Shown here one piece after another: positions 3,517-34,041 of a stretch of 64,000 bases of DNA (the stretch's first letter is position 1; every line of letters begins with the position of its first letter). Both the position numbers and the translations under genes were made by a program. The notes under the pieces are model-generated. The model saw only the letters and a program-made list of their open reading frames with translations. It was not told the origin of the DNA and did no database searches. The DNA comes from Arcobacteraceae bacterium (GTDB lineage: Bacteria; Campylobacterota; Campylobacteria; Campylobacterales; Arcobacteraceae), in the NCBI GenBank assembly GCA_965140475.1, contig OZ223243.1, forward strand, positions 29,642-93,641, read 5' to 3'.

Positions 3517-3927
3517 CTATTGTGTAATATGATGTTCGTTAATCTCCAACTTATTATATTTACTTGTCAAAGTAGAGTTTCTCTTTTTACCTTCACCCTC
3601 AAATACACCATTTTGTTCTATTAATAGCTCATCATATTGCATCTTCCCTATTACTTTTCCAAAACCTAAAATATTTACTTGCTCAACATCAAATAAACCA
3701 TCAATAAGACCATTTACTGTTAATACTTTTGATCTAATTTCACCTAAAACTTCACCATTTTTTCCAATTGTAACATCTTGTGTTGCTACAATTATACCTT
3801 CAAATCTACCATCAATAAAAATAGACCCCTTTGTATCAATCATACCTTTAAATGATGTACCACTGTTGATTACTGTTGTGCCATCTTGTTGCTCTGATCG
3901 CTTACTAGCTTTACTAAAGATTCCCAA
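3517..3927 (-). CDS. ccmA: Bactofilin (polymer-forming cytoskeletal protein, CcmA-like)
   Basis: 136 aa with a beta-helical bactofilin-like repeat pattern (GTSFKGMIDTKGSIFIDGRFEG..VTIGKNGEVLGEI). TTG start at 3927 with SD AGGAGG 5 nt upstream. Sits downstream of an M23 peptidase as in the H. pylori csd1-ccmA arrangement. Confidence 0.8.
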   Translation of the reverse strand: MGIFSKASKRSEQQDGTTVINSGTSFKGMIDTKGSIFIDGRFEGIIVATQDVTIGKNGEVLGEIRSKVLTVNGLIDGLFDVEQVNILGFGKVIGKMQYDELLIEQNGVFEGEGKKRNSTLTSKYNKLEINEHHITQ

Positions 3928-18774: not shown

Positions 18775-18816
18775 TTGATGTTTGTCAATATTTTTATTTT
18801 TATAAAATGGTACAAT
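18775..18816 (+). promoter_or_regulatory. Crp/Fnr-type box TTGATGTTTGTCAA plus -10 TACAAT (class II spacing)
   Basis: Perfect TTGAT-N4-GTCAA at 18775-18788, exactly 22 nt, then TACAAT at 18811-18816. The architecture is identical to the two nos boxes. Confidence 0.65.
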
Positions 18817-18842: not shown

Positions 18843-19328
18843 ATGCATATTTTAAGTTCTAAGTTTCGTAAAAAATTTGGTTTGTTTATTTTATTGACAG
18901 TATCGGTTAGTTCTTTGTTTGCTAATGATTTAGAAGTGAAACAACAAGATGTATCTCCCGAACAGTTACAGTCTCAAAATGTAGAAATAGCTAAATATGT
19001 TGCAATAGAATTATCAAAAGATTTGCCAAAGGTTGTAGATAAATATACAAAATTTACTTCAATTAAATCTGATAAAACAACACTTATATATACATTTGAA
19101 ATAAATATAGGTTCAAAGAGTGATGAAGCTGTAAAAAAAGAAGATCACAAAAGAATGGAAAAAGCTGTAGTACATGGAGTATGTAGTACTTCTAAAAGAT
19201 TTTTAGAAGCACAAATTGTCATAATTTATAATTATGTTAGTGCAAAATCTAAAGCCAAATTATTTCAATTTGAGATTGACCAAAATAAATGTTTTTTACT
19301 AGAAAAAATGGCATTTGCTAATGATTAG
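18843..19328 (+). CDS. Secreted protein, unknown function (start moved to ATG 18843)
   Basis: GGAG lies 9 nt upstream of ATG 18843. Signal peptide ends ...SVSSLFAND. The mature part has two Cys. No family recognised. Confidence 0.55.
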   Translation: MHILSSKFRKKFGLFILLTVSVSSLFANDLEVKQQDVSPEQLQSQNVEIAKYVAIELSKDLPKVVDKYTKFTSIKSDKTTLIYTFEINIGSKSDEAVKKEDHKRMEKAVVHGVCSTSKRFLEAQIVIIYNYVSAKSKAKLFQFEIDQNKCFLLEKMAFAND

Positions 19329-19779
19329 AAATATTCAATTTAATTTAATATTTTTATTGCTTTTTACTCTTCCTTTGTTATTCATTGGTTGTGAAAAAAA
19401 AGTAGATGATGGTATTACCAAAGTACACTGGGATAGAGATATGTGTGCAAGATGTGTTATGGTTGTTAGTGATAGAAAGAATACAGTTCAAATCAAAAAT
19501 CCCAATACAGGGAAAACATATATGTTTGATGATATTGGCTGCACTATTTTATGGTTTAATGAGGAAGAAATTATGTGGAAAGATAAAGCAGTTATTTGGA
19601 TTACTGATGTTAATAATGGCGAATGGATAGATGCTCGAACTGCATTTTATGATACTGAAAATATAACCCCTATGGCTTACGGATTTTCAGCACATAAAAC
19701 AAAAGATACAATCAAACAAAATCAAGAAATAATTAATTTTGAGGAAGTTTCAAGAAGAGTTTTACTAATCGGGAAATAA
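19315..19779 (+). CDS. NosL-family copper-chaperone-like lipoprotein (paralogue 1)
   Basis: Lipobox LFIGC, CARCVM (CxxCxM) followed by FDDIGC, and a C-terminal AYGFSAH. Clear paralogue of the 21691-22143 product. Confidence 0.75.
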   Translation: MLMIRNIQFNLIFLLLFTLPLLFIGCEKKVDDGITKVHWDRDMCARCVMVVSDRKNTVQIKNPNTGKTYMFDDIGCTILWFNEEEIMWKDKAVIWITDVNNGEWIDARTAFYDTENITPMAYGFSAHKTKDTIKQNQEIINFEEVSRRVLLIGK

Positions 19780-19800: not shown

Positions 19801-20328
19801 TTAATAAAACTTATGAATTTCTTCCATAATATTACTAAATTCTATATCTTCACCTTTTTCTTTCAAAAAGTTTATGAGGTATTTTTCACTTGCATCTATA
19901 CCCTCTTCTTGTTCAATTTTTAAAAGTTCTTTATACAATTCAGATATAACTTCAATTACATGTTTTGATATACTTTTCCTTGAAGCTGTATATCCTATAA
20001 TTTCATGAGTATCTGTATCTCGTCTTGATTCAAATTCTGTAAATATCCAATAATATCTTCCATCTTTTGCTAAGTTTTTTACTACTGCATTTATATTTTT
20101 ACCTGTAGATATAGTTTGCCATAATAATTTAAATACAATTTTTGGCATATCTGGATGTCTAATTATATTATGAGGTTGCCCAAGAAGTTCCTCTTTGCTA
20201 TACCCACATATTTCTATAAAATAATCATTACAAAATGTAATTCTACCTTTTGCATCAGTTTCGCTAACTATATATCTTTTTGGGTCTAATTGAATCTCTT
20301 CATCTAGTACTAGTTTATTATTTTTCAT
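19801..20328 (-). CDS. Stand-alone PAS domain protein, Aer/CetB-like (FAD-type PAS)
   Basis: GRITFCNDYFIEICGYSKEELLGQPHNIIRHPDMPK...KNLAKDGRYYW closely mirrors the Aer PAS signature (NIVRHPDMP). No TM segment or output domain. Confidence 0.8.
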   Translation of the reverse strand: MKNNKLVLDEEIQLDPKRYIVSETDAKGRITFCNDYFIEICGYSKEELLGQPHNIIRHPDMPKIVFKLLWQTISTGKNINAVVKNLAKDGRYYWIFTEFESRRDTDTHEIIGYTASRKSISKHVIEVISELYKELLKIEQEEGIDASEKYLINFLKEKGEDIEFSNIMEEIHKFY

Positions 20329-20379: not shown

Positions 20380-20832
20380 CTAAATACTCTTTTTACCATT
20401 ATATTTTTTAGAAAAATTTATTGCATCTTCTTCATTTTCAATAGCTACTAAATCATCGCCTGATGGTGAAATTGCACGACTTCCATAAATATAAAAAGCC
20501 TCTCTAGCATTTATTAATTTCATTGTCACATAATCAGTTACAATGATATCTTTTAAATCTTTTTCACTTTTTACACCAATATCAAACCACTTTCCAGGTC
20601 TATGATAAAACTCTATTAAAGATTTCGGACTTGAAAAAAAGATTTTTTTACCATTATTTAGTTCTATTTTGGCTGCCCATTGTGGATCTTTATAGATAAA
20701 AAAGTTTCTCACTAAACACCTAGTTTCCTTAGTGTAGTCCATTTGATAATTCATTGGAGCTTTCACTAGCAATGAATTTGAGCTATAAGCAACTGATATG
20801 AATATAAATATACCTATTAATAATTTGAACAT
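20380..20832 (-). CDS. nosL: NosL-family periplasmic protein with degenerate metal motif (paralogue 3, terminal gene of nos operon)
   Basis: Sec signal peptide without a lipobox. RCLVRNFFIYKDPQWAAKIE...FFSSPKSLIEFY aligns by eye with the CPVCGMF..YPKWAAQI...F motif I recall for epsilonproteobacterial NosL. Confidence 0.6.
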   Translation of the reverse strand: MFKLLIGIFIFISVAYSSNSLLVKAPMNYQMDYTKETRCLVRNFFIYKDPQWAAKIELNNGKKIFFSSPKSLIEFYHRPGKWFDIGVKSEKDLKDIIVTDYVTMKLINAREAFYIYGSRAISPSGDDLVAIENEEDAINFSKKYNGKKSI

Positions 20833-27670: not shown

Positions 27671-27720
27671 ACTATAACTAATTTCGAGAGAATATAACTT
27701 GACAATAATCAAGTTATATT
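27671..27720 (-). promoter_or_regulatory. Crp/Fnr-type box TTGATTATTGTCAA inside a perfect 12-bp-arm palindrome, plus -10 TATAGT
   Basis: The minus strand reads TTGAT-TATT-GTCAA (27712-27699), then 22 nt, then TATAGT (27676-27671). The palindrome AATATAACTTGA/TCAAGTTATATT spans 27691-27720. Confidence 0.6.
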
Positions 27721-27746: not shown

Positions 27747-30344
27747 TTAAAATAAGTTAGCATTTTTATCTATCCATTTAAAATATTCAATAATGTCGTC
27801 TGTTTCTTTCTCACTCATATGTTGATTTGGCATTCTAAGATTAAAATAGTTAATCATACCATCAACATATGGATCTTTATACATTTTTTCTGGGTTAAGA
27901 ATAAAACTTTTTACCCATTTTTCAGCATTTTCATGTCTTTGTAAAACACCCGTTAAATCAGGACCTGAAGATACTTTTCCAACAACATGACATCCAGAAC
28001 AACCACCCTCATTAAATGCTCTTTCACCTCTTTGAGCAGCAGGACTTTGCTTAGTTGCTATTATTCTTACCAGTGCATCTTTGGCTCTAATACCAACATC
28101 CGCTGTTTTAACCATTAATTGCCAAATCATATTTTCAAATAAAATAGCTTTTTCTATATCCCCATCTTTTAAGGCTTCATTAGCTAGTTTTTTCTGAGCA
28201 GGAATTTGTCCATATTGGTCAAAAGCATCAGTTACAAGAGCTGCTACAACTTTATGATCACCGAATTTATTTTCTTTTAAAAACTTAACAACAGATTGAA
28301 TAACTGCATCTGTAGCATCATTAACTGCAACTGTTTTATCATATTCTGCTTTTAATTCTTCAGTAGTCATTGTTTTCATTTTAAGTTTTTGAGCTGATGT
28401 ATATTTTTTATTTGGATCTTTAACCATTAAGTATCCCATCATCTCTAAATGAAGTGCTGAACAAAATTCTGTACAATAGTATGGGAAAACACCTTCTATA
28501 TCAGCTTCAAATTTAATAGATGCAGTTTCACCTGGCTCTAAAGAGGCATGAACATTATAATGATCTACTGTAAAACCATGAGTTTCATCTTGAGCTCTTT
28601 CAAGATTAGTTAAATGCATAGTAACTATATCACCTTTATTAACTGTAATTCTTTCTGGGTTAATATGAGATCTAACCATAGTAGCAAAAACTGTTACTTT
28701 GTTCCCATCTCTTTCAATCCTTTCTTGACCAGCTAAAGTTTTACCAATATGTTGTTCACCTGTTGTAACATTTGTACCCATTGGATATCTTACATGTGGG
28801 TGCAATTTAGTAGCTCTAATTGCAACAGCTTGATGTGGTTCACCTAAAGGTAAAGGCATATCTACAAGTAGATCCATTGTTTTACCACTAATATCAATTA
28901 ACTGATGATTTTGTGGGTGAAGTGGACCAACATTTTGAAATCTATCAATAGCAAGTTTATTTAAAGAGATAATATACTTACCTTGTGGGTCAGCAGATTT
29001 ACCCTCCATACCACATAAATGTCCAACATTATAATGAACATTTTCTTTATCCAAAACTTTAAGATCTTTATAGTTCCATTTTACGATTTGTGAATCAACA
29101 TAAAGTGAAGTATAAATTTCACCATCAACATTTGAATATTGATTATGTAATGGTCCAAGACCTAATTCAACTTGACCATGTAAAGATTTTTTCATATCTA
29201 AAATAGGAATACCATATGGATCTTTTCCAATATATTCTTTAGCATCAATTAATTTTTTAATTTTACTCCATTTATATACTGAAGCATGTGTATCTAATTT
29301 TCCACAAACTGTAATATATTCACCATCAGGTGAAACATCTACACCGTGAGGTGATTTAGGTTCAGGAATTAAAAATAAAGCATTATTTTTAACAGCAATA
29401 TCCATAGGTATAATTCTATGATTATTAACAACTTTTACATTTTTTGGATCTTTCGCAAGTTTTGCTAATTTTTCCCAGTTATATACATGTAAAAAATCAG
29501 TATCGAATCTACTCATACCAGCTTCATTTGGTGGCATACCAACTTCAATTCCACCAGTGTACATTTCTGTGTTAAATGAATTTGTAAATCCCCAACCATC
29601 AGATACACCTTTACCAGAATCTGATAAATCTTGCATATATGGAGGCATCTCTATTGTAAATGAAGCTTTTTCATCAATTCGACCTTTTTCAGAATCAAAT
29701 TTCCACATTGTAGCTCCACCTCTATAAGTTTCTTTATAGTCTTCAATTGGGTGATAGTCATTGTCAAATGGTGCAGCATATTGTGCAGCTTCTATTATAT
29801 ACTCAGAATTTTGAGTAAAAAAAGCTCCACCATGAGCTGATTTAAAAACAGGGTTAACTACAATTTGTCTAGTTTCAAAATCTGCTAAATCAATAATTGC
29901 AATTCTCGGGTTGGCTTTATCATTAATCGCTAACCATTTTCCATCATATTTTCCATCAACTTCTGAAAGTGCTGGGTGATGTGTATCTCCCCAATTTATC
30001 TCTCTTCCTCTAATATTCCCTTGTCTAAGAATTTTTTTAGAACCTTCATCAAACCCATATCCTTGCCATGGTTCTGGCGTAAATACTGCGATATACTTTA
30101 AAATTCTCATAGATGGAACACTGTAAACAATCATTTGTCCAGATTGACCACCAGAACTAAACACTACAAATTCATCTCTACCACCTGTCGGTAAATATGT
30201 TTTTGCAGCACGAATAACATCATTCTCTGTTAAGCCTCTTTTTTTCATTATCTTATCTAGCTCTCCCGTACTTGCTGTTGCAACGGTTGCAGCAATAGTT
30301 GTACCTAAAACTAAAGTTGATAATTTACTAAAAATCCTACTCAT
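27747..30344 (-). CDS. nosZ: Clade II nitrous-oxide reductase with C-terminal cytochrome c domain (cNosZ)
   Basis: 865 aa with a Sec-type signal (no RR), GDTHHP, CuA motif CTEFCSALHLEM and C-terminal CSGCH. Confidence 0.95.
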   Translation of the reverse strand: MSRIFSKLSTLVLGTTIAATVATASTGELDKIMKKRGLTENDVIRAAKTYLPTGGRDEFVVFSSGGQSGQMIVYSVPSMRILKYIAVFTPEPWQGYGFDEGSKKILRQGNIRGREINWGDTHHPALSEVDGKYDGKWLAINDKANPRIAIIDLADFETRQIVVNPVFKSAHGGAFFTQNSEYIIEAAQYAAPFDNDYHPIEDYKETYRGGATMWKFDSEKGRIDEKASFTIEMPPYMQDLSDSGKGVSDGWGFTNSFNTEMYTGGIEVGMPPNEAGMSRFDTDFLHVYNWEKLAKLAKDPKNVKVVNNHRIIPMDIAVKNNALFLIPEPKSPHGVDVSPDGEYITVCGKLDTHASVYKWSKIKKLIDAKEYIGKDPYGIPILDMKKSLHGQVELGLGPLHNQYSNVDGEIYTSLYVDSQIVKWNYKDLKVLDKENVHYNVGHLCGMEGKSADPQGKYIISLNKLAIDRFQNVGPLHPQNHQLIDISGKTMDLLVDMPLPLGEPHQAVAIRATKLHPHVRYPMGTNVTTGEQHIGKTLAGQERIERDGNKVTVFATMVRSHINPERITVNKGDIVTMHLTNLERAQDETHGFTVDHYNVHASLEPGETASIKFEADIEGVFPYYCTEFCSALHLEMMGYLMVKDPNKKYTSAQKLKMKTMTTEELKAEYDKTVAVNDATDAVIQSVVKFLKENKFGDHKVVAALVTDAFDQYGQIPAQKKLANEALKDGDIEKAILFENMIWQLMVKTADVGIRAKDALVRIIATKQSPAAQRGERAFNEGGCSGCHVVGKVSSGPDLTGVLQRHENAEKWVKSFILNPEKMYKDPYVDGMINYFNLRMPNQHMSEKETDDIIEYFKWIDKNANLF

Positions 30345-30406
30345 ACTTTCTCCTTTTCTCCCTTATATTTCATTTGAATAAAGATTAAAATTCAAGTGAT
30401 TGTAAA

Positions 30407-30448
30407 ATGATATATGAAAAAATAAGAAAATAATTTGACTTAGGGCAA
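30407..30448 (-). promoter_or_regulatory. Candidate Crp/Fnr-dependent nosZ promoter: TTGCCCTAAGTCAA plus -10 TATCAT
   Basis: The minus strand has a half-perfect box at 30448-30435 (right half GTCAA exact, left half TTGCC), then 22 nt, then TATCAT (30412-30407). The AGGAG SD lies 5 nt before the nosZ ATG. Confidence 0.5.
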
Positions 30449-30470
30449 ATTATTGTAAAAAAAGTAGTTT

Positions 30471-31433
30471 TTATTTTTTATGTTGTATTAAGTCCTTTAA
30501 TTTAGATTGTAAATCTTGTAATTTTGAAGCAATATTCATTAATTCTTCTAAAGATTGAATAACGGCATCTTCTTTTTTTGCCATATCAATATCAATCTTT
30601 TTTTTATCATTCATTTCATTTAAAAGTATTAAAAACACCTCAATATTATTTTCAATATTTTCTAAAGAATTTGAAGTATAATCTATTGCAGTATATCCTT
30701 GTTCAATAGAACTATTAATGTTTTGTACCAAACTATTGAAATTGTTTGCTACATTTTGAATATCTTTATTATGAACTTTTATATTAATTGGTTCTAACTC
30801 GCTAATTGTATTCTTTTGGATAATATTATTTGCAGAACTCATAAATTTTTGTATAAAAGAAAGAAGGGGTTTTACTTGTAAAAAAAGATACATAAGAAGA
30901 CTACTTATGAGAATAAATAAAATATATTGAATAATTTTGTATTCTCTTAATGACTCATTAAAATAATCTTTATGTAATTTAATTAAACTATCAAATTCAG
31001 CTGTTAAAGACATATTACTTATATATACTCTTGTGATTGTTTCCTCTAATAATATATTTGTATAAGGCATAATAACTTTTATTTGATTTTTAAATAATAT
31101 AACTTCTGAATGATATTGCTTCCAAAATTCAAATATTTTTTGACTTTGTTTTTTGATTTTTTCAGATTTAATATTCATTAGTATTCTATCTTTTTTATTA
31201 AGATTATTAGTAAAATTTTCCACTGCTTTATCTAGTTGAATACTAGGATGATTTGGGTTTCTATAAATATAAAAAATATTTTTTGATATCTCTTGCGTAT
31301 AATCTTTTTGTTGATTAATTAGTGTTAAGATATTGCTTTTTTGTTTATTCTGTTTATCGATATAATTTACAATTACAACCAATAATAATGATAATAAAAA
31401 AATCATTATCCCAAGTATTTTTATTTTATTCAT
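30471..31433 (-). CDS. Membrane sensor-like protein: TM, periplasmic helical domain, TM, HAMP, short coiled coil, no output domain
   Basis: Two TM segments. HAMP signature after TM2 (KPLL...NKDIQNVANNFNSLV). The periplasmic INQQKDYTQEISK resembles the PilJ/NarX-type N-terminal sensor motif. No H-box, ATPase or MCP hairpin. Confidence 0.6.
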   Translation of the reverse strand: MNKIKILGIMIFLLSLLLVVIVNYIDKQNKQKSNILTLINQQKDYTQEISKNIFYIYRNPNHPSIQLDKAVENFTNNLNKKDRILMNIKSEKIKKQSQKIFEFWKQYHSEVILFKNQIKVIMPYTNILLEETITRVYISNMSLTAEFDSLIKLHKDYFNESLREYKIIQYILFILISSLLMYLFLQVKPLLSFIQKFMSSANNIIQKNTISELEPINIKVHNKDIQNVANNFNSLVQNINSSIEQGYTAIDYTSNSLENIENNIEVFLILLNEMNDKKKIDIDMAKKEDAVIQSLEELMNIASKLQDLQSKLKDLIQHKK

Positions 31434-31444
31434 ATTATATCCCC

Positions 31445-32116
31445 TTAAATTTCTTTATAAATTAAATCTAAATTATACTGATCTGTAATAAAAACCTTGC
31501 CATGATCAATATCTATAACTTCTCTTCGTTTTAAATTATTTAAAACTCTTGATAATGTTGAGGGTCGAATATGTAGCATAAGAGAAATATCTGATCTTTT
31601 TAATTCATTAAATATTTCTAAATCAGTACTTATCATTTTGGCAACTTTAGATACTGCATCATATATAAATTCTCTATTAATAAGCGATTGTAATTTTATA
31701 GATTGTAAAACAATTTGATTAGTAAACTCAGAATTAAGAATATTTTGTTCTAAAAACTCATGTTTGAAGCCTTTATAATCAACAATTAATACTTTTGAAT
31801 CTTTTATAAAAGATATATTTGAAAAAAATTCCAATTCATCATTATTAGTATCTAATATTTCTGAAATCATATTATTTTGATAAATATGAAATAAAAAAAT
31901 TTCATTTTCATATTTATCAATTTTATAGGCTTTTGCTAAACCTTCAACTAAAAAAAACAATTTATTTATTTTAGTTTTTTCATAAGATAAGATATACTCT
32001 CTCTCATAACTTTCAATAGTGGATATTTCACTTAATCTATTAATTTGTTTTTCATTCAAGCTATGAAAAAAATCTAATTTTTGTATTACATTCTTTAAAG
32101 AGAAAGTGTTATCCAT
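31445..32116 (-). CDS. Crp/Fnr-family transcriptional regulator (cysteine-free; Nss/Dnr-like rather than Fe-S FNR)
   Basis: 223 aa with a cNMP-binding-like beta-roll and a C-terminal HTH (RSDISLMLHIRPSTLSRVLNNLKR). The translation contains no Cys. Starts 8 nt after the mnmG stop. Confidence 0.8.
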   Translation of the reverse strand: MDNTFSLKNVIQKLDFFHSLNEKQINRLSEISTIESYEREYILSYEKTKINKLFFLVEGLAKAYKIDKYENEIFLFHIYQNNMISEILDTNNDELEFFSNISFIKDSKVLIVDYKGFKHEFLEQNILNSEFTNQIVLQSIKLQSLINREFIYDAVSKVAKMISTDLEIFNELKRSDISLMLHIRPSTLSRVLNNLKRREVIDIDHGKVFITDQYNLDLIYKEI

Positions 32117-32124
32117 ATTGTTTA

Positions 32125-34041
32125 TTATACAGTAACTTTTTTATTTTTCATATCTATATGAAGATGGATAATATCCACTGCACTTGGGGTAATCCCGCTT
32201 ATTTGCGAAGCATTAAAAAGTGTTGGTGGTTTGAACTTTTTAAGCTTCTCTATAACTTCTGATGAAAGTCCAGGTAAGTTATCGTAGATGAAATCTTCTG
32301 GTATTTTTAGATTTAACATCTTTTTCATTTTTTCTATCTGTTTTTGTTGCTTATCTACATATCTATAATATTTTGCTTCAACTATCACTTGCTCTTTTAA
32401 GTAGTCATCAAGATGTGCAAGAGTTGGAACTAGTCTATCAAATTTTTCTTTAGTGATAGTGTTTCTTCCTACTAAATCTACAAGTAAAATTTGGTCTGAT
32501 ATCTTATCTTCCCCTAACTCTTCAAGAAGTGCTAGATTTTCTTTTTTTGATGTGAACCACTCATTTTCCATAAACTCTATAGCATCTTTGATAGTTTGTT
32601 TTTTATGAGTCATTGTATTATAAGTATCATCATCAATAAGTCCAAAATCATGCCCATAACCCATAAGTCGCATATCGGCACTCTCTTCTCTTAAAAGAAG
32701 TCTGTATTCAGCTCTACTTGTGAACATTCTATATGGTTCATTTGTCCCTTTTGTTACTAGGTCATCTATAAGAACACCTATATAACTCTCATCTCTTCTT
32801 AATACAAAGGGCTCTTTTTCATCAATAGCCAAACTTGCATTTATCCCAGCCATTAACCCTTGCGCTGCTGCTTCTTCATATCCAGTTGTTGCGTTGATTT
32901 GCCCTGCTAGATACAGATTTTTTATCTTTTTTGTTTCAAGCGTGTGTTGTAACTCTGTTGGGTCTATGTAGTCATACTCTATAGCATACGCATATCGTAC
33001 CACTTTTGCATTTTCTAGCCCTTTTATAGAGTGAATTTTTTGTTTTTGTACATCTATTGGTAAACTTGAACTTAAACCATTGATATAGTATTCTTCGGCT
33101 CTTATAGTTTGTGGCTCTAAAAATAGTTGGTGTCTATCTCTTTCACTAAATCTATTTACCTTATCTTCAATACTTGGACAATATCGTGGACCTGTCCCCT
33201 CAATTTGCCCTGTAAAAAGTGGAGCTCTATCAAAGTTTGTTCGGATGATATCGTGAGTATCTACATTTGTATATGTGATATAACAAGGCAGTTGTGTAGG
33301 ATGAAACTCCTCTTTATTTGTTCTAAAACTAAAAGGATGTGGCTCTTCATCTCCACCGTGTGCTTCCATTTGTGAGAAGTCTATTGAGTTTACATTGATT
33401 CTTGCAGGGGTTCCTGTTTTAAGTCTTCCTACATTTAGTCCTAATATTTTTAGTTGATCAGAAAGTGTAGTTGATGGCAGCTCCCAAGCTCGACCTGCTG
33501 GGTATTGATTAACGCCAATATGGATAAGTCCCTTCATAAAAGTACCAGTAGTTAAAATAACTTTTTTTGCTTCAAAAGTTTCCCCAAGTTTTGTTTCAAT
33601 ACCAAATACCTCTAAATGATCCTCTTGAGCTTCAACTTTTAAAGCACTCACTTCATCTTGATACACATCTAAATTTGGTGTATTTAAAGTGACATTTCTC
33701 ATATACTCTCTATATGCATCCATATCAATCTGAGCTCGACTCCCTTGAACAGCTGCACCTTTAGAGGCATTTAAAATTCTAAACTGAATACCTGTAGCAT
33801 CGGTACACAATCCCATCTCACCACCAAGTGCATCTATCTCTCGAACTAAATGACCTTTTGCAAGTCCACCAATAGCAGGATTACAACTAGCAGCTCCTAT
33901 TTGTTCTACTAACATAGTTACGAGTAAAGTTTTTTTACCCATTCTTGCAGCTGCTAGACTTGCTTCTATACCTGCATGTCCACCACCAACTACTATAACA
34001 TCATATTGTGCTGATGATTGCTCTTGTGTTTGTTTTGTCAT
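32125..34041 (-). CDS. mnmG: tRNA uridine 5-carboxymethylaminomethyl modification enzyme MnmG
   Basis: 638 aa with the FAD motif [11 protein letters not shown] and a conserved GidA core ([11 protein letters not shown]). Confidence 0.96.

What the first reader, a model, noticed from the sequence alone, without database searches (positions are those of the whole stretch)
30471..32116. Cysteine-free Crp/Fnr regulator co-operonic with a sensor-HAMP membrane protein that has no output domain, directly upstream of nosZ
What the sequence shows: the 223-aa Crp/Fnr-family protein contains no cysteine, so it cannot be a [4Fe-4S] FNR. It starts 8 nt after the stop of the housekeeping gene mnmG. It ends 11 nt before a 320-aa protein with the layout TM, ~150-aa helical periplasmic domain, TM, HAMP (KPLL...DIQNVANNFNSLV), then ~90 aa of coiled coil. 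That protein has no histidine-kinase, MCP, GGDEF or other output module.

Established: in Wolinella succinogenes and Campylobacter, Crp/Fnr-type Nss regulators mediate responses to nitrate, NO and N2O. To my knowledge the signal-perception mechanism is unresolved.

Inference: the membrane protein may perceive a periplasmic signal (N2O, nitrate or copper). It may transmit that signal to the soluble regulator by direct protein-protein contact or sequestration. That would be an unusual two-protein signalling design controlling the three boxes found in this window.
Basis: partly seen in the sequence, partly recalled or inferred. Interest (0 to 1): 0.78.

Follow-up and report, generated by a model that had tools for sequence, protein, structure and literature searches.

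The report
Kinase-less sensor paired with nosZ regulator
Directly upstream of the nitrous-oxide reductase gene sits a conserved gene pair, a Crp/Fnr-type activator and a NarX-like membrane sensor with no enzymatic output, which is an undescribed sister of a nitrate-sensing pair found at nitrate reductase genes and a concrete candidate for how these bacteria switch on N2O respiration.

Summary
A Cys-free 223-aa Crp/Fnr protein (32116..31445, minus strand) is followed after 11 nt by a 320-aa protein (31433..30471). That protein is built TM, periplasmic four-helix bundle, TM, HAMP-like segment, helical hairpin, with no output domain. nosZ follows 126 nt downstream.

The regulator-sensor pair is adjacent in 73/74 genome loci and 75/79 metagenome loci. 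nosZ follows in 58/64 genome loci. A class II Crp/Fnr promoter (TTGAC-N4-GTCAA, 22 nt, TAnnnT) precedes nosZ in 62/62 loci.

The sensor is a diverged paralogue (27% identity, E 3e-30) of PilJ/NarX-domain proteins. Those paralogues are also kinase-less, also follow a Crp/Fnr gene, and mostly sit upstream of napA. They carry the published nitrate-binding N-box; the nos clade has replaced it (0/190).

Homologues listed in a scan of 1.84 billion representatives show no kinase-, MCP- or Crp-sized fusion.

Two further parts turned up. A secreted PA3611/pilotin-fold protein is co-operonic in most genomes; here it lies at 18843..19328 with its own box. A small Aer-type PAS protein lies at 19801..20328.

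Direct sensor-to-regulator contact and the identity of the ligand remain inferred. I found no description of the sensor partner in the searchable literature.

The parts
31445..32116 (-). Crp/Fnr-superfamily (Nss-like) transcription regulator. 223 aa, no Cys. Recognition helix RPSTLSR, where the nap-linked paralogues have QPETLSR.
   Evidence: ORF. Pfam HTH_Crp_2 29.2 bits, cNMP_binding E 0.005. Full-length PDB matches to CprK, DNR and FNR. 50% identical to the nap-linked regulator of Sulfurimonas gotlandica.
30471..31433 (-). Kinase-less transmembrane sensor, 320 aa: TM1, periplasmic four-helix bundle, TM2, HAMP-like segment, helical hairpin.
   Evidence: Full-length homology to PilJ-domain paralogue P0150 (27% identity, E 3e-30).
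30936..31361 (-). Periplasmic four-helix-bundle domain (residues about 25-166), a diverged PilJ/NarX type.
   Evidence: AF2 helices. Foldseek: NarQ fragment, and 4k0d with TMt 0.85. Paralogue P0285 matches the McpN ligand-binding domain 6gcv (E 1.8e-5) and Pfam PilJ (2.4e-18).
31290..31328 (-). Position equivalent to the nitrate N-box (residues 36-48, LTLINQQKDYTQE). The family consensus is [LI]-[DNK]-x-I-N-x-Q-K-A-F-T-Q-E. The four nitrate-contacting residues A, G, R and M are replaced.
   Evidence: 0/190 nos-type sequences carry the N-box, against 91/120 nap-type. N-box definition from PMC6381276. Alignment.
30699..30869 (-). HAMP-like helix-loop-helix directly after TM2 (residues about 189-245).
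   Evidence: AF2. Foldseek alignment to NarQ sensor-TM-HAMP. Weak NCBIfam match to PmrB positions 66-205. Pfam HAMP not detected. hhalign P about 0.015.
30486..30698 (-). C-terminal DHp-like helical hairpin (residues about 246-316) with no conserved His. It contains the family-invariant E288-D289-x-x-I292 motif (30540..30581), the proposed output and partner surface.
   Evidence: E288, D289 and I292 are invariant even in paralogues of 17-25% identity.
30407..30448 (-). nosZ promoter: Crp/Fnr box TTGCCCTAAGTCAA (30448..30435), 22 nt, then -10 TATCAT (30412..30407).
   Evidence: Box present 65-117 nt (mostly 90-117) upstream of the nosZ ATG in 62/62 loci. Exact 22-nt spacing to TAnnnT in 62/62. 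Pattern occurs 4 times in the window against 0.63 expected.
27747..30344 (-). cNosZ (clade II, cytochrome c type), the controlled gene.
   Evidence: Found downstream of the pair in 58/64 loci.
27671..27712 (-). Second class II promoter (TTGATTATTGTCAA, 22 nt, TATAGT) in front of nosB and the accessory nos genes.
18775..18816 (+). Third class II promoter (TTGATGTTTGTCAA, 22 nt, TACAAT) in front of the secreted-protein gene.
18843..19328 (+). Secreted 161-aa protein with a Sec signal peptide, two invariant Cys and a PA3611/AspS-pilotin-like fold. In most genomes it is the first gene of the operon, ahead of the regulator and the sensor. Candidate periplasmic co-sensor.
   Evidence: Homologue directly upstream of the regulator gene in 55/74 genome loci, with overlaps of -5 to +5 nt. 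Found in 25/28 nos-type metagenome loci and 0/43 N-box loci. AF2 pLDDT 86. Foldseek 3npd E 1.7e-7, 6i2v, 4ftf.
19801..20328 (-). Small soluble Aer-type (FAD-type) PAS protein at the distal end of the nos cluster. Possible cytoplasmic redox input acting on the HAMP-like segment.
   Evidence: Pfam PAS_3. PDB 8dik Aer PAS, E 1.7e-24. Homologues in nap clusters and next to the regulator gene.

Best explanation
The two genes are the core of a dedicated signalling module that switches on N2O respiration.

**How I think it works**
- The 320-aa protein is a NarX/PilJ-type transmembrane receptor. It has lost the histidine-kinase catalytic domain and the phospho-accepting His, but keeps the sensor bundle, the TM helices, a HAMP-like relay and a DHp-like hairpin.
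- It senses a periplasmic cue that is not nitrate. It probably does so together with the secreted PA3611-fold protein that is co-operonic with it in most genomes.
- The conformational signal passes through the membrane to the hairpin.
- The hairpin, with its invariant E-D-x-x-I motif, binds or releases the adjacent Cys-free Crp/Fnr (Nss-type) regulator.
- The regulator then activates the class II promoters (TTGAC-N4-GTCAA centred near -41.5) of nosZ, of nosB and the following genes, and of the accessory gene.

**Origin.** The module arose by duplication of a nitrate-sensing [Crp/Fnr + kinase-less N-box sensor] module that sits at nap operons.

**Shown:** gene anatomy, absence of any output domain, the paralogy, conserved pairing and translational coupling, and promoter architecture.

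**Inferred:** direct sensor-regulator contact, its sign (activation or sequestration), the role of the secreted protein, and the ligand.
For: **Pairing**
- The regulator gene lies immediately upstream of the sensor gene in 73/74 genome loci and 75/79 metagenome loci.
- It also lies there in every distant subfamily locus inspected: L075, L077, L078, L079, L080, L081 and L082.
- The gap between the regulator stop and the sensor start is -8 to +5 nt in most of 70 pairs.

**No enzymatic route**
- No output domain was found by Pfam, NCBIfam or PDB searches.
- A scan of 1.84 billion representatives gave 207 relatives. All but one of the 150 listed are 463 aa or shorter, and none has the length of a kinase, MCP, GGDEF or Crp fusion.
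- His is not conserved in the cytoplasmic part; 10 of 70 orthologues have none.

**Descent from a nitrate receptor**
- The sensor shows 27% full-length identity to PilJ-domain paralogues.
- Those paralogues match the nitrate-bound McpN domain 6gcv.
- They carry the N-box in 91/120 cases and mostly lie upstream of napA.
- The nos clade has 0/190 N-boxes, but a different and strongly conserved motif in the same place.

**Output side conserved across paralogues**
- E288, D289 and I292 are invariant at 17-25% identity.
- The partner regulators of the two module types are 50% identical.

**Target**
- The box plus an exact 22-nt spacing to a -10 element occurs in 62/62 loci upstream of nosZ.
- The same box type lies between the sensor gene and napA.

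**Co-evolution**
- r(regulator, sensor) is 0.82. The partial correlation controlling for nosZ is 0.72, with 0/2000 permutations reaching it.

**Accessory protein**
- It is co-operonic in 55/74 genome loci and 25/28 nos-type metagenome loci, and in 0/43 N-box loci.

**Published context**
- In Wolinella succinogenes, Crp/Fnr-type Nss regulators mediate responses to nitrate, NO and N2O (PMC6682613).
- From my own memory of the abstract of Kern & Simon 2016 (paper not held): NssC is required for cNos production, and how N2O is perceived is unresolved.
Against: - No physical interaction was tested.
- The co-evolution signal can also arise simply from co-inheritance of linked genes.
- HAMP is not detected by Pfam.
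- The periplasmic domain has no conserved metal or haem ligands, so how a gas such as N2O would be bound is unclear.
- In one locus (L033) a soluble PAS histidine kinase directly follows the sensor gene, hinting at another possible partner.
- Three loci have a near-N-box sensor in front of nosZ, so position does not define the ligand.
- Crp/Fnr proteins normally sense through their own beta-barrel domain, which is retained here.
Confidence: 0.55

Rival explanations
1. The regulator perceives the signal itself, for example NO, N2O or redox state, through its beta-barrel domain as in DNR, NnrR or CooA. The membrane protein is only a tether or anti-activator with no periplasmic ligand input. It might report membrane or redox state through the Aer-type PAS protein instead.
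For: The beta-barrel domain is retained and well conserved in the regulator. Aer-type PAS proteins recur in nos and nap clusters. A PAS-HAMP contact is the known mechanism in Aer and CetA/CetB (PMC2628428).
Against: The periplasmic domain is long and folded, and its helix-1 motif is among the most conserved parts of the protein. The nap-linked paralogues keep an intact nitrate N-box, which only makes sense if the periplasmic domain senses.
Confidence: 0.15
2. The kinase-less sensor signals to an unlinked or variably linked enzyme: a soluble PAS histidine kinase, or a GGDEF protein. The Crp/Fnr protein would then respond to phosphorylation-dependent factors or to a nucleotide second messenger such as c-di-GMP, not to direct contact.
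For: L033 has a PAS histidine kinase overlapping the end of the sensor gene. A 4HB_MCP-GGDEF gene is divergent from the nap-linked pair in L075 and L077. Some Crp/Fnr proteins in other bacteria bind c-di-GMP (my own knowledge of Clp and Bcam1349).
Against: These enzymes are not conserved with the pair: 1 of 74 loci for the kinase, and none in the window. The only universally conserved neighbour is the Crp/Fnr gene.
Confidence: 0.12
3. The module works as in the best explanation, but the nos-clade receptor senses an oxyanion or another denitrification or sulfur intermediate, such as nitrite, sulfite or thiosulfate, and not N2O.
For: A conserved Lys replaces the nitrate-binding Arg. No metal or haem ligands are present. 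NarX also binds nitrite and sulfite (PMC6381276). The hosts are sulfur-oxidising denitrifiers.
Against: There is no direct evidence for any ligand. N2O-specific induction through an Nss regulator is reported in Wolinella (PMC6682613).
Confidence: 0.3
4. The adjacency reflects co-regulation only. The membrane protein would have a non-signalling role in Nos or Nap assembly or in the membrane.
For: All three small proteins are annotated only as hypothetical. The secreted protein has a pilotin-like, assembly-factor-like fold.
Against: The protein is homologous to receptor domains and has the sensor-TM-HAMP architecture. The same pair occurs at two different enzyme systems, nap and nos. Some pairs are not next to any reductase genes (L078, L079 and L080).
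Confidence: 0.05

Closest known systems
NarX/NarQ nitrate/nitrite sensor histidine kinases (E. coli) and the McpN PilJ-domain nitrate chemoreceptor (P. aeruginosa)
   Same: The same receptor front end: TM1, a periplasmic four-helix bundle of the PilJ/NarX family, TM2 and a HAMP-type relay. The nap-linked paralogues keep the nitrate N-box.
   Different: No H-box His, no ATPase domain and no MCP signalling domain. The partner is a Crp/Fnr protein rather than NarL/NarP or CheA/CheW. In the nos clade the N-box is replaced.
Nss-type Crp/Fnr regulators of Campylobacterota (C. jejuni NssR; W. succinogenes NssA, NssB, NssC)
   Same: Crp/Fnr superfamily, TTGA-N6-TCAA boxes, and control of nap, nrf and nos. 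Nss-type genes have been noted upstream of nap clusters in mesophilic Campylobacteria (PMC7476070; PMC6682613).
   Different: None of the papers I could read or search mentions a membrane partner. Orthology of this regulator to NssC could not be tested, because no reference sequence was available. The recognition helix has Ser or Ala where the nap-type regulators have Glu.
DNR/NnrR/FnrP plus NosR control of clade I nosZ
   Same: A Crp/Fnr activator drives nosZ from a class II FNR-type box.
   Different: Those regulators sense NO or O2 directly through haem or an [4Fe-4S] cluster. NosR is a flavin/FeS membrane protein unrelated to this sensor.
Bipartite Aer-like systems (C. jejuni CetA/CetB) and membrane-protein-controlled transcription factors (PtsG-Mlc, MalK-MalT, anti-sigma/sigma)
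   Same: The signalling function is split between separate polypeptides that communicate by contact. In CetA/CetB a stand-alone Aer-type PAS protein acts on a HAMP protein. In the others a soluble transcription factor is controlled by a membrane protein.
   Different: Different protein families. None of them involves a NarX-like receptor or a Crp/Fnr factor. The analogy is functional only (own knowledge, plus PMC2628428 for CetA/CetB).
PA3611 (QSregVF-like secreted protein) and the T2SS pilotins AspS/EpsS
   Same: Same fold as the co-operonic secreted protein (Foldseek E 1.7e-7 to 1.4e-5, TMt 0.77-0.84).
   Different: No detectable sequence similarity. It is not a lipoprotein, no secretin is present, and it has two invariant Cys.

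Membership tests
Crp/Fnr superfamily | C-terminal Crp-type winged HTH | tested here: met
   PF13545 scores 29.2 bits against a cut-off of 27.
Crp/Fnr superfamily | N-terminal cNMP-binding-like beta-barrel plus dimerisation helix, with full-length similarity to solved members | tested here: met
   PF00027 E 0.005, below Pfam's cut-off. Full-length alignments to CprK (E 5.5e-4), DNR, FNR and CooA. Paralogous partner regulators carry precomputed PF00027 hits.
FNR proper (O2-sensing [4Fe-4S]) | Cluster-ligating cysteines | tested here: not met
   0 Cys in the window protein. Orthologues have a variable count of 0-5 (most 0-3).
Nss family (NssR, NssA, NssB, NssC) | Orthology to Cj0466 or to the W. 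succinogenes Nss proteins | not testable with these tools
Kern & Simon 2016 is not held.
Nss family (NssR, NssA, NssB, NssC) | TTGA-N6-TCAA target boxes in front of nap or nos genes | tested here: met
PilJ/NarX-type periplasmic sensor domain (PF13675) | Direct profile match | tested here: not met
   No PF13675 hit in the window protein or in any of 20 nos-type members.
PilJ/NarX-type periplasmic sensor domain (PF13675) | Homology through intermediates, and fold | tested here: met
   27% identity and E 3e-30 over the full length to P0150 (PF13675). P0285 matches 6gcv. Foldseek matches NarQ and 4k0d.
Nitrate-binding PilJ domains | N-box [IVL]-[ND]-x-A-G-x-Q-R-M-L-[ST]-Q | tested here: not met
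   0/190 nos-type sequences carry it, against 91/120 nap-type. The window has LTLINQQKDYTQE.
HAMP domain (PF00672) | Profile match, or helix-connector-helix after TM2 | tested here: inconclusive
   No Pfam hit. Faint in paralogue P0202 (E 0.017). hhalign finds the right register at P about 0.015. The AF2 topology and the NarQ-fragment match are consistent with HAMP.
Sensor histidine kinase | H-box His in the DHp, and an HATPase_c domain | tested here: not met
   No HisKA or HATPase hit. His is not conserved. The protein ends about 130 residues after TM2.
Methyl-accepting chemotaxis protein | MCPsignal domain | tested here: not met
   Only noise-level hits: 4 of 20 members, best E 0.023. The cytoplasmic part is far too short.

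The most novel reading that the evidence does not exclude
The nos-linked clade, together with its secreted PA3611-fold partner, is the missing N2O-perception device of clade II N2O-respiring Campylobacterota. The [kinase-less NarX-like receptor + Crp/Fnr] pairs at nap and nos would then define a previously unrecognised class of transmembrane signalling. In it, a receptor controls a one-component-type transcription factor by direct contact, without phosphotransfer.
Probability: 0.12. Interest if true: 0.95.

Novelty: new variant of a known kind. Interest (0 to 1): 0.78.

Why it matters
N2O reductase is the only known biological sink for N2O. How clade II N2O reducers decide to express it is an open question. 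Genetics in Wolinella implicated Crp/Fnr-type Nss regulators and implied an unknown N2O-sensing route.

This locus supplies a specific, widely conserved candidate for the perception step, together with a natural control: the nitrate N-box paralogue at nap. That makes the question directly testable by binding assays, two-hybrid tests and reporter fusions.

If the contact mechanism holds, it also adds a new wiring type to bacterial signal transduction. A NarX-like receptor that has shed its kinase would be driving a Crp/Fnr factor directly.

Tried and rejected
- **Complex prediction.** I tried AF2 on a paired, linker-joined alignment of the regulator and the sensor cytoplasmic part (A3). There is therefore no complex prediction.
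- **HAMP by sequence.** Pfam found nothing. I keep the label "HAMP-like".
- **PDB profile search with the family.** It returned only coiled-coil noise.
- **Generic sigma-70 and terminator scan.** The number of hits was below the shuffled expectation in this AT-rich DNA, so it was uninformative. I replaced it with the box + 22 nt + TAnnnT analysis.
- **Rosetta-stone fusions of sensor and Crp.** No listed relative has the length of such a fusion.
- **Autoregulation.** An exact box within 260 nt upstream of the regulator gene occurs in only 11/70 loci. A box upstream of the secreted-protein gene occurs in 15/52. Autoregulation is therefore not general.
- **Literature.** Searches on NssC, NssA/NssB, N2O sensing, locus tags, and PilJ/nap/Crp found no description of the sensor partner. 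Kern & Simon 2016 and the S. denitrificans genome paper are not held. I cannot exclude a mention there.
- **Orthology to Wolinella NssC, and whether Wolinella has such a sensor.** This could not be tested.
- **Copper-sensor idea.** Rejected, because no His, Cys or Met is conserved in the periplasmic domain.
- **mnmG co-transcription as a conserved feature.** Rejected, because the adjacency occurs only in L001 and L002.
Full report
**1. What is in the window**

All the genes are on the minus strand.
- mnmG lies at 34041..32125.
- A 223-aa ORF lies at 32116..31445, starting 8 nt after the mnmG stop.
- A 320-aa ORF lies at 31433..30471, 11 nt further on.
- After 126 nt comes an 865-aa cytochrome c-type NosZ at 30344..27747. 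It has nos_propeller, cupredoxin and cytochrome c domains.
- nosB, nosD, nosG, nosH, nosF and nosY-like genes follow, down to about 19.8 kb.

The 223-aa protein has no cysteine. It passes Pfam HTH_Crp_2 and weakly matches cNMP_binding. It aligns end to end with CprK, DNR, FNR and CooA chains in PDB.

**2. The membrane protein**

- It has exactly two hydrophobic segments, about residues 5-24 and 167-188.
- An AF2 model (pLDDT 83) gives TM1 continuing into a periplasmic four-helix bundle, then TM2 continuing as a helix to residue 207. A loop (208-222), a long helix (223-275), a turn and a last helix (282-316) follow.
- The best structural matches are the crystallised NarQ sensor-TM-HAMP fragment (5jef, 5jeq, 5iji) and a histidine-kinase periplasmic sensor domain (4k0d, TMt 0.85).
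- Pfam, NCBIfam and a PDB profile search detect no kinase, MCP, GGDEF or any other output domain. This holds for this protein and for 20 relatives.
- An exhaustive HMM scan of 1.84 billion representative proteins finds only 207 relatives. Those listed are about 300-345 aa, or 420-463 aa with a doubled periplasmic domain. The one exception is a 2050-aa repetitive protein.
- Histidine is not conserved in the cytoplasmic part.

The "no output domain" claim therefore holds for the listed family members, not only for this copy. The HAMP label is weaker. Pfam does not see it, and a profile comparison finds the right register without significance. I call the segment HAMP-like, on position, motif and fold.

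**3. Conservation**

A scan of species-representative genomes returned 74 loci. They come from Sulfurimonas, Sulfuricurvum, Sulfurovum, Arcobacteraceae and other Campylobacterales. L001 is the window's own MAG.
- The regulator gene lies directly upstream of the sensor gene in 73 of the 74. The remaining locus is cut by a contig end.
- The two genes usually overlap or lie within 5 nt of each other.
- nosZ starts within 700 nt downstream in 58 of the 64 loci that have enough flank.
- In some of the six exceptions the pair is still embedded among nos genes.
- mnmG is adjacent only in the two closest relatives, so that detail is incidental.
- An independent metagenome sample of 80 loci gives the same picture. 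The regulator gene is upstream in 75 of 79, and in 36 of 36 loci of the nos type.
- Pairwise divergence of regulator and sensor is correlated (r 0.82). The partial correlation controlling for NosZ is 0.72, and 0 of 2000 permutations reached it. Linked inheritance could also produce this.

**4. The target promoter**

Between the sensor gene and nosZ every locus has a Crp/Fnr box, with consensus TTGACCTTAGTCAA (62 of 62). A TAnnnT -10 element follows after exactly 22 nt (62 of 62). This is a class II arrangement with the box centred near -41.5.

In the window the box is TTGCCCTAAGTCAA (30448..30435), with TATCAT at 30412..30407. The same composite pattern occurs in front of nosB (27712..27671) and in front of the gene at 18843 (18775..18816). 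There are four matches in the window against 0.63 expected. Three of them are these correctly oriented intergenic sites.

**5. Where the sensor comes from**

The distant relatives found carry the canonical motif INIAGKQRMLTQ and hit Pfam PilJ. One of them aligns to the window protein over its full length (27% identity, E 3e-30). Another matches the nitrate-bound ligand-binding domain of McpN (6gcv).

Martin-Mora et al. defined this motif as the nitrate-binding N-box (PMC6381276). R61 hydrogen-bonds nitrate, and G58, A59 and M62 contact it.

These paralogues are also kinase-less. They also lie immediately downstream of a Crp/Fnr gene, and in most cases they sit next to napAGHBFLD. They lie upstream and co-directional in S. 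gotlandica, in an uncultured Sulfurimonas and in CP041403, and divergent in L082. At least 22 metagenome loci show the same arrangement. The same TTGAC-N4-GTCAA box lies in front of napA. One of these genomes also carries the nos-type pair.

The strict N-box is present in 91 of 120 nap-type proteins and in 0 of 190 nos-type proteins. The nos-type proteins instead have a conserved [LI]-[DNK]-x-I-N-x-Q-K-A-F-T-Q-E, in which all four nitrate-contacting residues are replaced.

The partner regulators of the two module types are 50% identical. They differ in the recognition helix: QPETLSR against Q/R-P-A/S-TLSR.

Across all sensor subfamilies, at 17-25% identity, the invariant cytoplasmic positions are E288, D289 and I292, at the start of the last helix.

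The simplest reading is this. A nitrate-sensing [Crp/Fnr + kinase-less receptor] module was duplicated. One copy kept its output surface and its partner type, and changed its periplasmic specificity.

**6. Additional parts**

*Secreted protein.* The gene at 18843..19328 encodes a secreted 161-aa protein with a Sec signal peptide, two invariant Cys and no Pfam match.
- Its homologue is the first gene of a tightly overlapping three-gene operon (secreted protein, regulator, sensor) in 55 of 74 genome loci.
- The same holds in 25 of 28 nos-type metagenome loci with flank, and in none of 43 N-box-type loci.
- In the window's lineage the gene has moved to the far end of the nos cluster and has its own class II box.
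- Its AF2 model (pLDDT 86) has the fold of PA3611 and of the T2SS pilotins EpsS and AspS (E 1.7e-7 to 1.4e-5). In pilotins this fold clamps a partner helix (my own knowledge).
- Loss of the N-box together with gain of a periplasmic partner suggests indirect sensing through a co-receptor. This is inference.

*PAS protein.* The last gene of the nos cluster (19801..20328) is a stand-alone Aer-type PAS protein (8dik, E 1.7e-24). Homologous small PAS proteins occur inside nap clusters or next to the regulator gene. In Aer, and in the bipartite CetA/CetB system of C. jejuni, such a PAS domain acts on a HAMP domain (PMC2628428). A redox input onto the HAMP-like segment is therefore plausible, but it is untested.

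**7. Mechanism and its limits**

With no catalytic domain anywhere in the family, the only invariant neighbour is a Crp/Fnr gene, and it is translationally coupled to the sensor gene. Direct control of the regulator by the receptor's DHp-like hairpin is therefore the most economical explanation (confidence about 0.55).

It is not demonstrated.

The ligand is unknown.
- Nitrate is unlikely, because the N-box is gone.
- Copper or haem is unlikely, because no His, Cys or Met is conserved.
- N2O is attractive by analogy and because of the Wolinella genetics.
- The analogy is weakened by three loci in which a near-N-box sensor (INIVGKQRMLTQ) precedes a divergent nosZ.
- It is also weakened by the lack of any obvious gas-binding cofactor.

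The rival explanations are:
- the regulator senses the signal itself and the membrane protein is a tether;
- signalling goes through a variably linked enzyme, such as the PAS histidine kinase after the sensor gene in L033 or the GGDEF gene next to nap-type pairs;
- the module senses a different anionic ligand;
- the membrane protein has a non-signalling role.

**8. Comparison with what is known, and novelty**

The front end is NarX, NarQ and McpN-like, but the protein fails the defining tests for a histidine kinase and for an MCP. The regulator is a Crp/Fnr member of the kind called Nss in Campylobacterota. Orthology to NssC could not be tested.

Published work notes Nss-type regulator genes upstream of nap clusters in mesophilic Campylobacteria (PMC7476070). 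A review reports that W. succinogenes responds to nitrate, NO and N2O through NssA, NssB and NssC (PMC6682613). None of the papers I could read or search mentions the co-operonic sensor, the secreted protein or the pairing rule. Database names are "hypothetical protein" or [quoted passage not shown].

I rate it a new variant of a known kind. The domains are known, but they are combined in an undescribed wiring.

**9. Verdict**

It is also more complex: a periplasmic accessory protein, and possibly a PAS input, belong to it.

Interest is 0.78.

Noticed in passing
window 18843-19328 (+), box at 18775-18788: A secreted 161-aa protein with a PA3611/AspS-pilotin-like fold and two invariant Cys. In most other genomes its gene is the first of a three-gene operon, ahead of the regulator and the sensor. 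Here it has been relocated to the far end of the nos cluster and has its own class II Crp/Fnr promoter.
   Followed up: yes
window 19801-20328 (-): A stand-alone Aer-type (FAD-type) PAS protein ends the nos cluster (8dik, E 1.7e-24). Homologous small PAS proteins sit in nap clusters (L077, L081) or next to the regulator gene (L079). It may be a CetB-like input onto the HAMP-like segment.
   Followed up: partly
L033 5944-7047: In one genome the sensor gene is overlapped at its end by a 367-aa soluble PAS histidine kinase (H-box AHQWRQPL, G2 box GTGLGL). This is the only locus where a kinase accompanies the pair.
   Followed up: partly
L117, L120, L126 (metagenome loci): A sensor with a near-intact N-box (INIVGKQRMLTQ), closest to the nap type, lies directly upstream of a divergent nosZ (68-70% identity to the window's). 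In some lineages, therefore, a nitrate-type receptor fronts nosZ.
   Followed up: partly
L075 5848-7104 and L077 5939-7180: A 4HB_MCP-GGDEF (diguanylate cyclase) gene is transcribed divergently from the nap-linked regulator-sensor pair in two Sulfurimonas genomes.
   Followed up: no
window 32124-32151 (-): A TATAAT hexamer overlaps the mnmG stop codon and ends 7 nt before the regulator's ATG. This would imply a leaderless or nearly leaderless transcript if it is used. The generic promoter scan is not informative in this AT-rich DNA.
   Followed up: no
window 30001-32000: The regulator-sensor segment has the lowest G+C of the window (23%, against 28-34% in flanking genes).
   Followed up: no
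window 19315-19779 (+) and 20380-20832 (-): Two small exported proteins next to the secreted-protein gene. The first is weakly NosL-like (E 4e-4). The second has no family match but is conserved in L033.
   Followed up: no
window 3679-3720 (+): A fourth match to the box + 22 nt + TAnnnT pattern, outside the nos locus. It is probably a chance match and its gene context was not examined.
   Followed up: no
L078 1590-2977; L079 and L080: Some distant family members are flanked by two Crp/Fnr genes: a tandem pair upstream in L078, and one on each side in L079 and L080. The extra copies are only 25-30% identical to the paired type.
   Followed up: no
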